From: Escherichia coli | GTDB lineage: Bacteria > Pseudomonadota > Gammaproteobacteria > Enterobacterales > Enterobacteriaceae | Direction: 5' to 3' (one strand) | Assembly: GCF_017348835.2 (NCBI RefSeq) | Contig: NZ_CP071375.1 | DNA length: 64,000 nt | Part shown: one piece after another, positions 54,001 through 57,000 of the stretch | Layout: each line of letters begins with the position of its first letter | Position numbering within the stretch: position 1 is the first letter of the stretch | Position numbers: made by a program

Positions 54001-57000
54001 GTACCGGTAATCCTGCAGTAATCGCTTCCAGCAGCACAATTCCCGCCGCTTCCTGGTAGGCAGGATGCAGTAATAAATCCGCCGCCGCCATTAATTCCGA
54101 GACATCGTTGCGCCCCGAGAAGAAGTGAACATTACTGCGCACGCCGCGTTTTTCTGCCAGCGCCTCAAATTTTCGCGGTTTATCCTGCCCAACAACATAT
54201 AGCAATGTGTTGTGGCGCAGCGAATCCGGTAACGAAGCAAGTGCTTCAATGGAACGATCGACACCTTTACGCGTGAAGTCTGAACCGACCTGCAACAATA
54301 AATATTGTTGTTCGGTTATTCCATTCTTCTTACGGAAGATTTCACGGCTATTGGCTGGCTGCTGGCTATATTTACGATCAGGATAAATCCCCGGTGGCAG
54401 AATATGAAAACGCTCCGCTTCAGTCTGATAATGTTTCTGGAAATCGGCGATTTGCTTATCTGTCAGCATCAGCAGCTGTGTCGGCTTGCCCTGTTCGAAG
54501 GTTGCCCGCTCAAAGGCGGCATAATGGCGATAACGTGACGTCAGGCGATAGAAAAAGCCTTTTTCCTGCGCTACTTTCTCGGCATAACAAACATCAGCGG
54601 CATAATAAACGTCCAGCCCCGGCATTTTGTTGAATCCAACGACTTTATCGACGGGATGTTCGCGTAAATGTTTTTGCACCCAGGCAAAATACTCCGCATT
54701 GCGCCCGTGATTGGTATGCGATTTAACCGGCACTTTGATCAGTTCAAATACATCAGGGCATTCGCCTTCCCACGACTGGGTATAAACCCGAACATGATGA
54801 CCTCGGGCGGCGACTGTCTGAGCAATACGCATAAAATCGCGCTGCAAACCGCCAAAGGGAAAATATTTATATAAACAAAAAGCAACGATCATAACGACGT
54901 ACCTGTCGTGGAGGAGGGCAGTAATTTATCGACAGCAGCAATGACATCTGCCGCCGGAATAACCGAAAGATACATCTCATTTCGGTCACGCTGATCGCGC
55001 GTTGGCATTTCCCGGTAATCTCCCGCCCAGAATTGAATCATGTTATTTGACCAGGGACGCCAGAAAATATGGTCTGTCGCACCAAACAGCGATATCAGCG
55101 GCGTATTAACTGCAGCGGCAATATGCGCCGGTGCGGAATCAACGCCAATAAACAGCTGCGCATGATCGATTAACGCACCAAGTTCCGGGAAGGTCACCTT
55201 TCCAGCCAGCGCCGTTACTGGTGGCGTCTGGCATCCCTGCGCAATTTCATTGACGCAGGCCAGATCGTCTTTATCTGGGCCGGACGTCAGAACGACTTCA
55301 TAACCACGAGCATGTAAGGCATCAATCACAGCGGAAAACTTGGCGTTGTCCCAGCATTTGAAGATTTGCCGCGCCGTAGGTTGGATAACCACATAATTTT
55401 GTCCAACACCAGCGTGATCAAGTTCGCGACGCATACGTTTCCAGCTTGCAGGCGGGTAACTCATGGTTGTCTGCTTCACCAACGAATCAAGTCCCAATGG
55501 TGTCAGCACGGATAAGTTACTTTCCACCACATTTCCACCCTGCAACGGCACCAAATGGGTGAAACTTTTACGCCAAAAAGCAGACTGCCGATGATGATAA
55601 TCCTGGGAAATTTTCACACGGGCATTTAATAAGCGAACCAGTATAGCAACCATCCATTGATCGGTAAGATTGACGATAAGGTCATACTTATTGGCACGTA
55701 ATACCTTGATGAGATGAAAAAAGTTGGCAATTTTTTCTGAGGCTTTTGCTTTTTTATTTTTTATGCCGTAGAGCGCGTTAATCTCTGGATTTTCAGACAG
55801 GATCGGGATGGTGTCCTGATAAAGCAGCACATCGATTTTTGCGTCAGGGTAATTTTTTTTCAGCGAACTAATGACGGGAGTAGTTAATAACATATCCCCA
55901 TGAAAACGCATCTTAATGAGCAAAATTCTTCGAAATGGCTTATCCACAAGTAACTCTTTTTGTTGAGATTATCCGATTAAGGTGAAGCAGAAAAAGCACG
56001 CTACCGCCCCAGGCTCAACAGCTACCTGAATACTGATACCGCACTGATATTGACGCGCTAGTGTATCACTTCTTTCGCGGCAATCCGACCCGAATGATTT
56101 TTAAGCACATTGTTGATTTTCAATAAAGAAATCAATCAAATATAATCATTAGCAACCATATTCTTTCACTGTTGCTCTGCGATTCCTTCCTGCACGTACA
56201 GCAGAAATCAATGAATCGCATAAAAATACAAAAAAAGTATAGATGTTCAGCAAGAATTGGCGGGTAAATTGCTATTTAAGTCAAAAACGGGAAAAGTAAT
56301 GGTAAAGCCACAGCTAAATACATAGAATCCCCAGCACATCCATAAGTCAGCTATTTACTATGCTCGAATTGCTTTACACCGCCCTTCTCTACCTTATTCA
56401 GCCGCTGATCTGGATACGGCTCTGGGTGCGCGGACGTAAGGCTCCGGCCTATCGAAAACGCTGGGGTGAACGTTACGGTTTTTACCGCCATCCGCTAAAA
56501 CCAGGCGGCATTATGCTGCACTCCGTCTCCGTCGGTGAAACTCTGGCGGCGATCCCGTTGGTGCGCGCGCTGCGTCATCGTTATCCTGATTTACCGATTA
56601 CCGTAACAACCATGACGCCAACCGGTTCGGAGCGCGTACAATCGGCTTTCGGGAAGGATGTTCAGCACGTTTATCTGCCGTATGATCTGCCCGATGCACT
56701 CAACCGTTTCCTGAATAAAGTCGACCCTAAACTGGTGTTGATTATGGAAACCGAACTATGGCCTAACCTGATTGCGGCTCTACATAAACGTAAAATTCCG
56801 CTGGTGATCGCTAACGCGCGACTCTCTGCCCGCTCGGCCGCAGGTTATGCCAAACTGGGTAAATTCGTCCGTCGCTTGCTGCGTCGTATTACGCTGATTG
56901 CCGCCCAAAATGAAGAAGATGGTGCACGTTTTGTGGCGCTGGGCGCAAAAAATAACCAGGTAACCGTTACCGGTAGCCTGAAATTCGATATTTCTGTAAC

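What the first reader, a model, noticed from the sequence alone, without database searches (positions are those of the whole stretch)
55997..56008. Exact ops element in the waaQ leader
The 12-nt ops consensus GGCGGTAGCGTG is present on the minus strand about 50 nt upstream of waaQ. This implies RfaH-dependent antitermination of the long outer-core operon, which is known biology for waa operons. It also gives an anchor for mapping the operon promoter.
Basis: partly seen in the sequence, partly recalled or inferred. Interest (0 to 1): 0.3.

Follow-up and report, generated by a model that had tools for sequence, protein, structure and literature searches.

The report
Known RfaH loading site before waaQ
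The 12-base ops signal is really there, inside a complete JUMPstart element in the leader of the E. coli LPS-core (waaQ) operon, and it is the textbook, already characterised site where the antiterminator RfaH boards RNA polymerase, so the finding is correct but ordinary.

Summary
GGCGGTAGCGTG occurs once, exactly, at 55997-56008 on the minus strand. It lies on the sense strand of waaQ, 49 nt before the conserved GTG start at 55947. It is the 3' end of a full-length JUMPstart element (Rfam RF01707, 55.2 bits against a cut-off of 35).

The window is E. coli chromosome carrying a seven-gene waa operon whose gene order and outer-core sequence point to the R3 core type. By alignment to the MG1655 ncRNA rirA (b4760), the transcript starts at 56053, 7 nt after an extended -10 (TGaTACACT). 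That puts ops at +46 to +57 of a 106-nt untranslated leader.

Of 72 waaQ loci from other Enterobacterales, 45 carry the identical 12-mer 22-50 nt before the aligned start. rfaH is present in 5425 of 5426 complete E. coli genomes. Published ChIP and genetics in K-12 and CFT073 show RfaH loading at this ops and travelling down the operon.

One extra observation: the leader RNA folds into a hairpin that pairs a 5' "anti-ops" segment with the ops transcript and is followed by a U-run. This is the body of the known RirA sRNA and looks like a terminator. That reading is untested.

The parts
55997..56008 (-). ops element GGCGGTAGCGTG. G1 is at 56008. The pause position U11 is at 55998. G12 is at 55997.
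   Evidence: Exact and unique in the window. The identical 12-mer occurs upstream of waaQ in 45 of 72 loci from other species.
55997..56035 (-). Complete 39-bp JUMPstart element, with ops as its 3' end.
   Evidence: Rfam RF01707, 55.2 bits against a cut-off of 35, E = 3e-11, full model length.
56010..56028 (-). Small JUMPstart hairpin: CAGGU (56028-56024) pairs with GCCUG (56014-56010).
   Evidence: Rfam consensus structure. All cells pair in 49 leaders, but only one pair shows a change on both sides, and 41 of 500 shuffles reach the observed covariation score. Its folding energy is no better than shuffles.
56060..56068 (-). Extended -10 promoter element TGaTACACT (TG at 56068-56067, hexamer at 56065-56060).
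   Evidence: TGnTAcAcT is invariant or nearly so in 49 leaders and is kept even in Siccibacter, which has lost ops. It lies 7 nt upstream of the rirA-equivalent 5' end. Its function as a promoter is inferred.
56083..56088 (-). Conserved TCGGAT box at the -35 position, 17 bp from the -10 hexamer. It matches the consensus TTGACA at only 2 of 6 positions.
   Evidence: Invariant in all 8 genera aligned. Its role is not established.
56053..56053 (-). Inferred transcription start of waaQ mRNA and RirA.
   Evidence: The 5' end of MG1655 ncRNA rirA (b4760, 3808166-3808238) aligns here. Reviews state that RirA and waaQ mRNA share their 5' end (PMC5736990, PMC8745692).
55982..56053 (-). Equivalent of the 73-nt RirA sRNA. 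It is 72 nt here because the T-run is T5 rather than T6. It contains JUMPstart and ops.
   Evidence: Alignment to MG1655 rirA. Description of RirA in PMC6358824 and PMC5736990.
56032..56045 (-). 'Anti-ops' 5' segment AGUGCGGUAUCAGU, predicted to pair with the ops transcript plus CU (56007-55995).
   Evidence: MFE and centroid fold at -19.3 kcal/mol. On the 49-leader alignment, 91.5% of cells pair, against 19-60% when partners are slid. In independent folds, 9.4 of 12 ops bases pair with the 5' segment, against 3.9 with shuffled 5' segments. For the window sequence alone the result is not significant (0.14).
55991..55995 (-). U/T run starting one base after ops.
   Evidence: T in 41-43 of 49 leaders at each position. 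Absent after the K-12 rfb ops.
55954..55958 (-). Weak Shine-Dalgarno-like AAGAG, 6 nt before the start codon.
   Evidence: Nearly invariant in 49 leaders. The literature describes RfaH operons as lacking a canonical ribosome-binding site (PMC6358824).
54889..55947 (-). waaQ (rfaQ), heptosyltransferase III, with a GTG start. First gene of the operon.
   Evidence: RefSeq annotation of an identical sequence. The GTG is invariant. The N-terminus aligns with WaaF and WaaC only if the upstream start is used.
49006..54892 (-). Rest of the operon: waaG 53768-54892, waaP 52978-53775, waaO/I 51928-52935, waaY 51195-51902, GT8 (waaJ-like) 50157-51170, GlcNAc transferase (waaD-like) 49006-50148.
   Evidence: Annotation of strain GF3-3, 99% identical over this part. 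Gaps between genes are at most 42 nt. GC falls to 30-32% in the distal genes. The outer-core part is shared at 98.4% with O157:H7 strains and is present in 1363 of 5426 genomes.
48977..49003 (.). Symmetric A5-stem-T5 hairpin between the convergent waaL and the last operon gene. It is the likely bidirectional terminator that ends the RfaH-modified transcript.
   Evidence: Terminator scan. Its function is inferred.

Best explanation
This is the native ops/JUMPstart element of the E. coli waaQ (rfaQ) LPS-core operon.

Transcription starts at about 56053 from an extended -10 promoter. When RNA polymerase has transcribed to ops position U11 (55998, +56), it pauses. The ops bases on the exposed non-template DNA strand form a small hairpin that RfaH recognises. 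RfaH binds, its C-terminal domain refolds, and it stays on the polymerase for the whole operon.

Bound RfaH excludes NusG, suppresses pausing, Rho-dependent termination and H-NS-imposed blocks, and helps load ribosomes on messages with weak ribosome-binding sites. As a result the seven AT-rich genes waaQ-G-P-O/I-Y-J-D are fully expressed.

Shown here: the sequence, strand, position, JUMPstart membership, cross-species conservation, promoter/leader geometry, and species-wide presence of rfaH.

Taken from the literature on identical or near-identical sequences: RfaH binding, pausing, and antitermination or counter-silencing.

Inferred: that this holds in this particular strain.
For: - The 12-mer is exact and unique, on the sense strand, 49 nt before the GTG of waaQ.
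- There is a full-length JUMPstart hit well above the curated threshold.
- The leader from about 56100 to waaQ is conserved between the two E. coli intergenic alleles, with JUMPstart and ops identical, although the region further upstream has diverged to about 77% identity.
- The 86-nt core is at least 99% identical in 4400 of 5424 genomes, and 5424 of 5426 genomes hold most of it.
- In an unbiased sample of 72 waaQ loci from other species, 45 have the exact 12-mer 22-50 nt before the aligned start. In Brenneria it sits ahead of an extra upstream gene.
- The MG1655 rirA annotation places the transcript start 45 nt upstream of ops, next to a conserved extended -10.
- No second ops lies inside the operon.
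- The distal genes have 30-32% GC, typical of H-NS/Rho-silenced DNA.
- rfaH is present in 5425 of 5426 complete E. coli genomes.
- Literature: all RfaH operons carry a 12-nt ops in the leader, and recruitment occurs through a non-template-strand hairpin with a pause at U11 (PMC5995543). waaQ is the first gene of the RfaH-regulated waa operon (PMC5449661). RfaH ChIP-seq signal starts at the single leader ops of rfa in CFT073, and the operon is H-NS bound (PMC9765446). ops and JUMPstart are described in the waaQ 5' UTR, together with RirA (PMC6358824, PMC8745692, PMC5736990).
Against: There is no direct measurement for this strain. The window does not include rfaH, so its presence in this genome is only very likely. 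The transcription start is transferred by homology from an annotation whose primary paper (Klein et al. 2016) I could not read. The generic sigma-70 scan instead picked TTGAAA-18-AATCAT at 56123-56094, so a second, upstream promoter cannot be excluded. RNA folding energies of JUMPstart and of the leader are no better than shuffles. This argues against an RNA-structure mechanism, not against the DNA-level ops mechanism.
Confidence: 0.93

Rival explanations
1. The element also works as a leader attenuator, in addition to or upstream of its DNA-level role. The nascent leader RNA would fold into a long hairpin whose 3' arm is the ops transcript and which is followed by a U-run. Polymerases that fail to acquire RfaH at the pause would terminate there and release the short RirA RNA. 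RfaH-modified polymerases would read through.
For: The predicted hairpin is -19.3 kcal/mol in the window and -21.9 in K-12, and is followed by U5/U6. The ops transcript pairs with a 5' segment in 46 of 49 independently folded leaders. On average 9.4 of 12 ops bases pair, against 3.9 with shuffled 5' arms, and 29 of 49 leaders are individually at or below 0.05. The 5' arm sequence differs between clades while pairing is kept. An A-rich 5' end often pairs with the U-run. The annotated RirA spans exactly this hairpin. The architecture is absent from the rfb ops leader, matching RirA being specific to waaQ.
Against: The leaders are phylogenetically related and ops is invariant, so covariation can only be one-sided. 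For the window sequence alone the test is not significant (0.14). The whole-RirA folding energy has z = -0.66. The terminator scan did not flag it. The annotated RirA 3' end lies about 9 nt beyond the U-run rather than in it. Published polarity data describe loss of distal rather than proximal expression in rfaH mutants (PMC5449661).
Confidence: 0.25
2. The main role of the sequence is as RNA. Either the JUMPstart RNA motif or the RirA sRNA would carry ops and titrate RfaH, rather than the sequence acting as a DNA signal read on the non-template strand.
For: Rfam files JUMPstart as a cis-regulatory RNA with a hairpin. [quoted passage not shown]
Against: Structural and biochemical work shows that RfaH reads the non-template DNA strand at the paused complex (PMC5995543). 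The small hairpin shows almost no covariation and no excess stability. In the predicted RirA fold the ops bases are paired rather than exposed. The RirA effect was seen on overexpression. This role would add to the DNA-level ops function, not replace it.
Confidence: 0.15
3. A chance or vestigial match with no function in this strain.
For: Short G-rich motifs do occur by chance. Three other copies of the 8-nt core exist in the window, against 1.3 expected.
Against: The exact 12-mer is expected 0.01 times per window. It lies in a 39-bp element with E = 3e-11. Position and sequence are conserved across genera. The other 8-mers lie inside coding regions or on the template strand and lack the 3' TG. 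That class shows no RfaH ChIP signal in CFT073 (PMC9765446).
Confidence: 0.02

Closest known systems
E. coli K-12 waaQ (rfaQ) leader: ops/JUMPstart plus the RirA sRNA (b4760)
   Same: Orthologous locus. JUMPstart and ops are identical. The extended -10, the AAGAG box and the GTG start are the same. The RirA-equivalent is about 92% identical (5 substitutions and 1 T indel).
   Different: The intergenic DNA upstream of about 56100 belongs to a different allele, roughly 77% identical over the 412 nt. The operon behind it has seven genes with an R3-like gene order, and waaL sits in the hldD-waaFC operon, rather than the ten-gene K-12 core.
JUMPstart/ops upstream of the O-antigen (rfb) operon, e.g. 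K-12 rfbB
   Same: Same 12-mer, the same GGTAGC...GCC hairpin, same strand logic, same RfaH dependence (PMC6358824).
   Different: In rfb the ops is 75 nt before the rfbB GTG. It is followed by CATTAAT rather than a U-run, and it has no obvious anti-ops arm or annotated sRNA.
ops elements of the hly, kps, tra and other RfaH operons
   Same: A single ops on the non-template strand of an untranslated leader ahead of a long, H-NS-bound, horizontally acquired operon (PMC9765446, PMC5995543).
   Different: Those operons are accessory or virulence loci. waa is a core housekeeping envelope locus, present with this leader in 5424 of 5426 genomes.

Membership tests
ops element (RfaH recruitment and pause site) | Matches the 12-nt consensus, including the recognition core G2-G8 and the pause-inducing T11-G12. 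| tested here: met
   Exact GGCGGTAGCGTG at 55997-56008 (-). Roles of individual bases are from PMC5995543.
ops element (RfaH recruitment and pause site) | Lies on the non-template (sense) strand of the regulated operon. | tested here: met
   Minus strand, the same as waaQ-G-P-O-Y-J-D.
ops element (RfaH recruitment and pause site) | Located in the transcribed but untranslated leader, downstream of the promoter and upstream of the first gene. | tested here: met
   The inferred TSS at 56053 comes from the MG1655 rirA 5' end and a conserved extended -10. ops is at +46 to +57 and the GTG at +107. The TSS is transferred by homology, not measured in this strain.
ops element (RfaH recruitment and pause site) | Single leader copy, with no reloading sites within the operon. 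| tested here: met
   No other match with up to 1 mismatch in the window. No 8-mer core between 49006 and 55947.
ops element (RfaH recruitment and pause site) | RfaH is encoded by the same genome. | not testable with these tools
   rfaH lies outside the 64-kb window. At species level it is present in 5425 of 5426 complete E. coli genomes.
ops element (RfaH recruitment and pause site) | RfaH occupancy from ops onward, and rfaH-dependent expression of distal genes. | not testable with these tools
   Shown experimentally for the same element in K-12 and CFT073 (PMC5449661, PMC9765446, PMC5995543). Not measured for this strain.
JUMPstart (Rfam RF01707) | Covariance-model score above the curated gathering threshold over the full model. 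| tested here: met
   55.2 bits against 35, model positions 1-38 of 38.
JUMPstart (Rfam RF01707) | The consensus 5-bp hairpin is supported by covariation. | tested here: inconclusive
   All cells pair in 49 leaders, but only one pair changes on both sides, and 41 of 500 shuffles reach the observed score.
RirA sRNA (5'-UTR-derived, waaQ) | Sequence homologous and syntenic to MG1655 b4760, containing JUMPstart and ops and sharing its 5' end with waaQ mRNA. | tested here: met
   Alignment of L078:1167-1239 to window 55982-56053. Whether the RNA accumulates in this strain is not testable here.
R3-type waa core locus | Gene order waaQ-G-P-I(O)-Y-J-D, with waaL in the divergent hldD-waaFC operon. 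Outer-core genes shared with O157:H7. | tested here: met
   Annotation. The 3.9-kb distal part is 98.4% identical to O157:H7 strains and present in 1363 of 5426 genomes. That O157:H7 has the R3 core is from established knowledge, not tested here.

The most novel reading that the evidence does not exclude
The waaQ leader may be more than an RfaH loading pad. It could be a conserved RNA switch in which a 5' 'anti-ops' arm pairs with the ops transcript to build a terminator-like hairpin followed by a U-run immediately after the pause site. Under this reading, RfaH capture at the pause decides between read-through into the operon and release of the short RirA RNA, and RirA would be the by-product or feedback signal of failed RfaH loading. 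I could not read the primary RirA paper, so part of this may already be described.
Probability: 0.22. Interest if true: 0.4.

Novelty: already known. Interest (0 to 1): 0.1.

Why it matters
As annotation, it marks the start of the LPS-core transcription unit and explains why rfaH mutants of such strains are rough, detergent-sensitive and attenuated. It adds nothing new to RfaH biology.

The comparative data give a compact, conserved map of the whole control region: the TCGGAT box, the extended -10, the TSS, the anti-ops arm, the JUMPstart hairpin, ops, the U-run, AAGAG and the GTG start. This map could guide promoter or leader engineering, or a test of how RirA is made.

The natural variants found here are ready-made comparisons for how much of the element is needed. 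They are Siccibacter (JUMPstart and ops deleted), Kluyvera cryocrescens (G4A in ops) and Brenneria (ops moved ahead of an extra gene).

Tried and rejected
1. **RNA structure as the explanation.** The JUMPstart 39-mer (z = +0.32) and the 161-nt leader (z = +1.0) fold no better than shuffles. Covariation in the small hairpin is minimal. I rejected RNA structure as the primary mechanism.

2. **The generic sigma-70 scan.** It proposed TTGAAA-18-AATCAT (56123-56094). This would start the transcript near 56087, and a 73-nt RNA from there would end before ops, which is incompatible with RirA containing ops. The rirA annotation and the conserved TGnTACACT favour 56053. I kept the upstream site only as a possible second promoter.

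3. **The other three GGCGGTAG cores.** They lie at 9755 (+), 29731 (+) and 63343 (+). The first is inside an rhs ORF (codons Y-G-G-S). The second is deep inside lldP. The third is on the template strand of pyrE. All lack the 3' TG. Intragenic sites of this kind show no RfaH ChIP signal (PMC9765446), so I rejected them as functional ops.

4. **The primary RirA and LapB papers.** PMC5087721 and PMC4031536, and the DOI, are not held. I relied on reviews by the same group and on the RefSeq annotation.

5. **Thermodynamic fold of the 12-nt DNA.** It gives a weak hairpin (-0.9 kcal/mol) with a register different from the crystal structure. This is not informative.

6. **Collinearity with strain GF3-3.** It fails in the left part of the window because of a 5.3-kb rhs insertion. 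I used that strain's annotation only for 43600-64000.
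Full report
**1. 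The observation**

Reading 55700-56500 shows GGCGGTAGCGTG on the minus strand at 55997-56008.
- It is the only match in the window, even with one mismatch allowed.
- Exact matches are expected 0.01 times per window in dinucleotide-preserving shuffles.
- The nearest downstream minus-strand ORF is 54889-55947, with a GTG start.

**2. What the locus is**

The 1.1 kb around the site is 100% identical to several E. coli chromosomes, and 5424 of 5426 complete genomes hold a match. RefSeq annotation of an identical sequence (strain GF3-3) gives the following layout:
- rfaQ at window 54889-55947 (-).
- The divergent waaA at 56360-57637 (+).
- Behind rfaQ on the minus strand: waaG, rfaP, waaO, rfaY, a GT8 glycosyltransferase and a GlcNAc transferase.
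- rfaD-rfaF-rfaC-rfaL converging on them from the plus strand.

The operon therefore has seven tightly packed genes (49006-55947, about 6.9 kb). GC falls to 30-32% in the distal half. The four distal genes are found in only 1363 of 5426 genomes and are 98.4% identical to those of O157:H7 strains. Together with the gene order, this identifies the R3 core type; the R3 assignment of O157:H7 is from established knowledge. A symmetric A5-stem-T5 hairpin at 48977-49003 lies between the two convergent operons and is the likely terminator.

**3. The element itself**

Rfam's JUMPstart model (RF01707) matches 55997-56035 (-) over its full length at 55.2 bits, against a gathering score of 35 (E = 3e-11). 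It is the only Rfam family found in the 64 kb.

RNA folding of JUMPstart or of the 161-nt leader is no more stable than shuffles. The small JUMPstart hairpin pairs in all 49 orthologous leaders but shows almost no two-sided covariation. This agrees with the published view that ops is read as non-template DNA rather than as RNA (PMC5995543).

**4. Promoter and leader geometry**

MG1655 RefSeq annotates a 73-nt ncRNA, rirA (b4760), at 3808166-3808238 (-), just upstream of waaQ. Reviews from the discovering group say that RirA lies in the waaQ 5' UTR, contains JUMPstart and ops, and shares its 5' end with waaQ mRNA (PMC5736990, PMC8745692, PMC6358824).

Aligned to the window, the rirA 5' end falls on 56053 and its 3' end on about 55982. 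Seven nucleotides upstream of 56053 lies TGaTACACT (56068-56060), an extended -10. The resulting layout is:
- ops occupies +46 to +57.
- The pause position U11 is at +56 (55998).
- The 5' UTR is 106 nt.

The generic sigma-70 scan had chosen a different site (56123-56094). That site cannot yield a 73-nt RNA containing ops.

**5. Conservation within E. coli**

The intergenic region exists in two main alleles. The window's allele is at least 99% identical in about 4180 genomes. A K-12-type allele, in about 950 genomes, is only 76-78% identical over the 412 nt. The divergence is confined to the part upstream of about 56100. From there down to waaQ the alleles are nearly identical, and JUMPstart and ops are identical apart from one A/G change that converts an A-U pair to G-U. 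The 86-nt core is at least 99% identical in 4400 genomes. One strain carries an IS1 about 110 bp upstream of the inferred start, leaving the conserved block intact.

**6. Conservation across genera**

A scan of one genome per species with the WaaQ protein returned 72 loci. This sample was not selected for ops.
- **Exact 12-mer present.** Forty-five loci have it 22-50 nt before the aligned start codon. They span Escherichia, Citrobacter, Kluyvera, Salmonella, Pluralibacter, Silvania, Kosakonia, Cedecea, Buttiauxella, Shimwellia, Leminorella and others.
- **Moved.** In Brenneria the exact ops lies 1440 nt upstream, ahead of an extra same-strand gene. In Superficieibacter and a relative, AGCGGTAGCGTG lies about 1280 nt upstream in the same way.
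- **Absent.** Providencia, Moellerella, Arsenophonus and Hartigia show no ops within the available upstream flank (up to 3 kb).
- **Degraded or deleted.** Kluyvera intermedia has AGCGGTAGCGTA. K. cryocrescens has AGCAGTAGCGTA; it carries A at G4, a core position where a substitution (G4C) abolished recruitment in PMC5995543. Two Siccibacter species have cleanly lost JUMPstart and ops while keeping the promoter box and the AAGAG-GTG start.

I then aligned 49 leaders. I selected them for containing GCGGTAGCGT, so invariance of those ten columns is by construction. In this alignment the other nearly invariant blocks are TGnTAcAcT, GGTAGCTG...AGCC, a T-run after ops, AAGAG, and the GTG start.

The invariant GTG supports the PGAP start over the MG1655 ATG twelve codons downstream, as does the alignment of the WaaQ N-terminus with WaaF and WaaC.

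**7. Mechanism**

The published mechanism, which I take as established, runs as follows.
- RNA polymerase pauses at ops U11.
- The exposed non-template strand forms a short hairpin that presents G5 and T6 to RfaH.
- RfaH binds and refolds, excludes NusG, suppresses pausing and Rho termination, counteracts H-NS/StpA filaments, and recruits the ribosome to messages lacking a good Shine-Dalgarno sequence.

The supporting sources are PMC5995543, PMC5449661, PMC9765446 and PMC6358824. In CFT073, RfaH ChIP signal begins at the single leader ops of the rfa locus, and intragenic ops-like sites bind no RfaH (PMC9765446).

All sequence prerequisites are met here, and rfaH itself is present in 5425 of 5426 complete E. 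coli genomes. The three other GGCGGTAG cores in the window are in an rhs ORF, in lldP, and on the template strand of pyrE. All lack the TG at positions 11-12, so they belong to the non-functional class.

**8. An extra observation**

Folded from the inferred start, the RirA-equivalent forms one long hairpin (-19.3 kcal/mol). In it, 56045-56032 (AGUGCGGUAUCAGU) pairs with the ops transcript plus CU, enclosing the small JUMPstart hairpin. A U5 run follows.
- Independent folds of the 49 leaders give the same architecture in 46.
- On average 9.4 of 12 ops bases pair with the 5' arm, against 3.9 when the 5' arm is shuffled.
- Twenty-nine of 49 leaders are individually at or below 0.05.
- On the alignment, 91.5% of cells pair, against 19-60% for slid partners. 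The 5' arm differs between clades while ops stays fixed.
- The K-12 rfb JUMPstart has no U-run after ops.

This looks like a terminator-like attenuator placed exactly at the RfaH loading site, and it may explain how RirA arises. The caveats are substantial:
- The sequences are related.
- Covariation is necessarily one-sided.
- The window sequence alone is not significant (0.14).
- The overall folding z-score is only -0.66.
- The annotated RirA 3' end lies beyond the U-run.
- I could not read the primary paper.

I therefore give this reading about 0.2-0.25.

**9. Verdict**

The element is the already characterised ops/JUMPstart of the waaQ operon, in a strain with an R3-type core. Novelty: already known. 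Interest is low (0.1). The only lead worth a specialist's glance is the conserved anti-ops hairpin plus U-run.

Noticed in passing
window 55991-56045 (-): The leader RNA is predicted to form a long hairpin. A 5' 'anti-ops' arm (56045-56032) pairs with the ops transcript, and a U-run (55995-55991) follows. The fold recurs in 46 of 49 orthologous leaders, with clade-specific 5' arms. It is terminator-like and coincides with the RirA body.
   Followed up: partly
window 56083-56088 (-): A TCGGAT box at the -35 position of the inferred promoter is invariant in eight genera, although it matches the -35 consensus at only 2 of 6 positions. It is retained even in Siccibacter, which has lost ops. It may be a regulator site.
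   Followed up: no
window 56100-56270: E. coli has two sharply diverged alleles of the waaQ-waaA intergenic region. The window type is in about 4200-4400 genomes and the K-12 type in about 950, with roughly 77% identity between them. The divergence stops abruptly at the conserved promoter/leader block.
   Followed up: partly
L019 and L037 (Siccibacter), L073 and L010 (Kluyvera), L062 and L068 (Brenneria), upstream of position 3001: There are natural variants of the element. Siccibacter has deleted JUMPstart and ops but kept the promoter and the AAGAG-GTG start. K. cryocrescens has AGCAGTAGCGTA (G4A) and K. intermedia has AGCGGTAGCGTA. In Brenneria the exact ops sits 1440 nt upstream, ahead of an extra gene.
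   Followed up: partly
L004 693-1390 (E. coli SW07163): An IS1 is inserted in the waaA-waaQ intergenic region about 110 bp upstream of the inferred waaQ start. The conserved promoter/leader block is left intact.
   Followed up: no
window 55909-55947 (-): There is a start-codon discrepancy. PGAP and cross-species conservation support the GTG at 55947 (352 aa), which is invariant in 49 leaders and preceded by a conserved AAGAG. The MG1655 annotation (b3632, 344 aa) starts at the ATG twelve codons downstream.
   Followed up: yes
window 9519-14872: A 5.3-kb rhs region is absent from the otherwise closest strain GF3-3. The Rhs ORF is split by an in-frame TGA at 11450-11452 (580 aa + 809 aa). An Imm57 immunity gene follows at 13977-14414. 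An ops-core 8-mer (GGCGGTAGCATT) lies on the sense strand 46 nt into the rhs ORF, encoding Y-G-G-S.
   Followed up: partly
window 48977-49003: A symmetric hairpin (AAAAAGGCTGCA-TAA-TGCGGCCTTTTT) lies between the convergent waaL and the last gene of the waaQ operon. It is a probable bidirectional intrinsic terminator.
   Followed up: no
window 49000-53000: The distal operon genes have only 30-32% GC, against about 50-54% for the flanking genes. This is consistent with horizontally exchanged, H-NS-targeted outer-core cassettes. This cassette is present in 1363 of 5426 E. coli genomes.
   Followed up: partly
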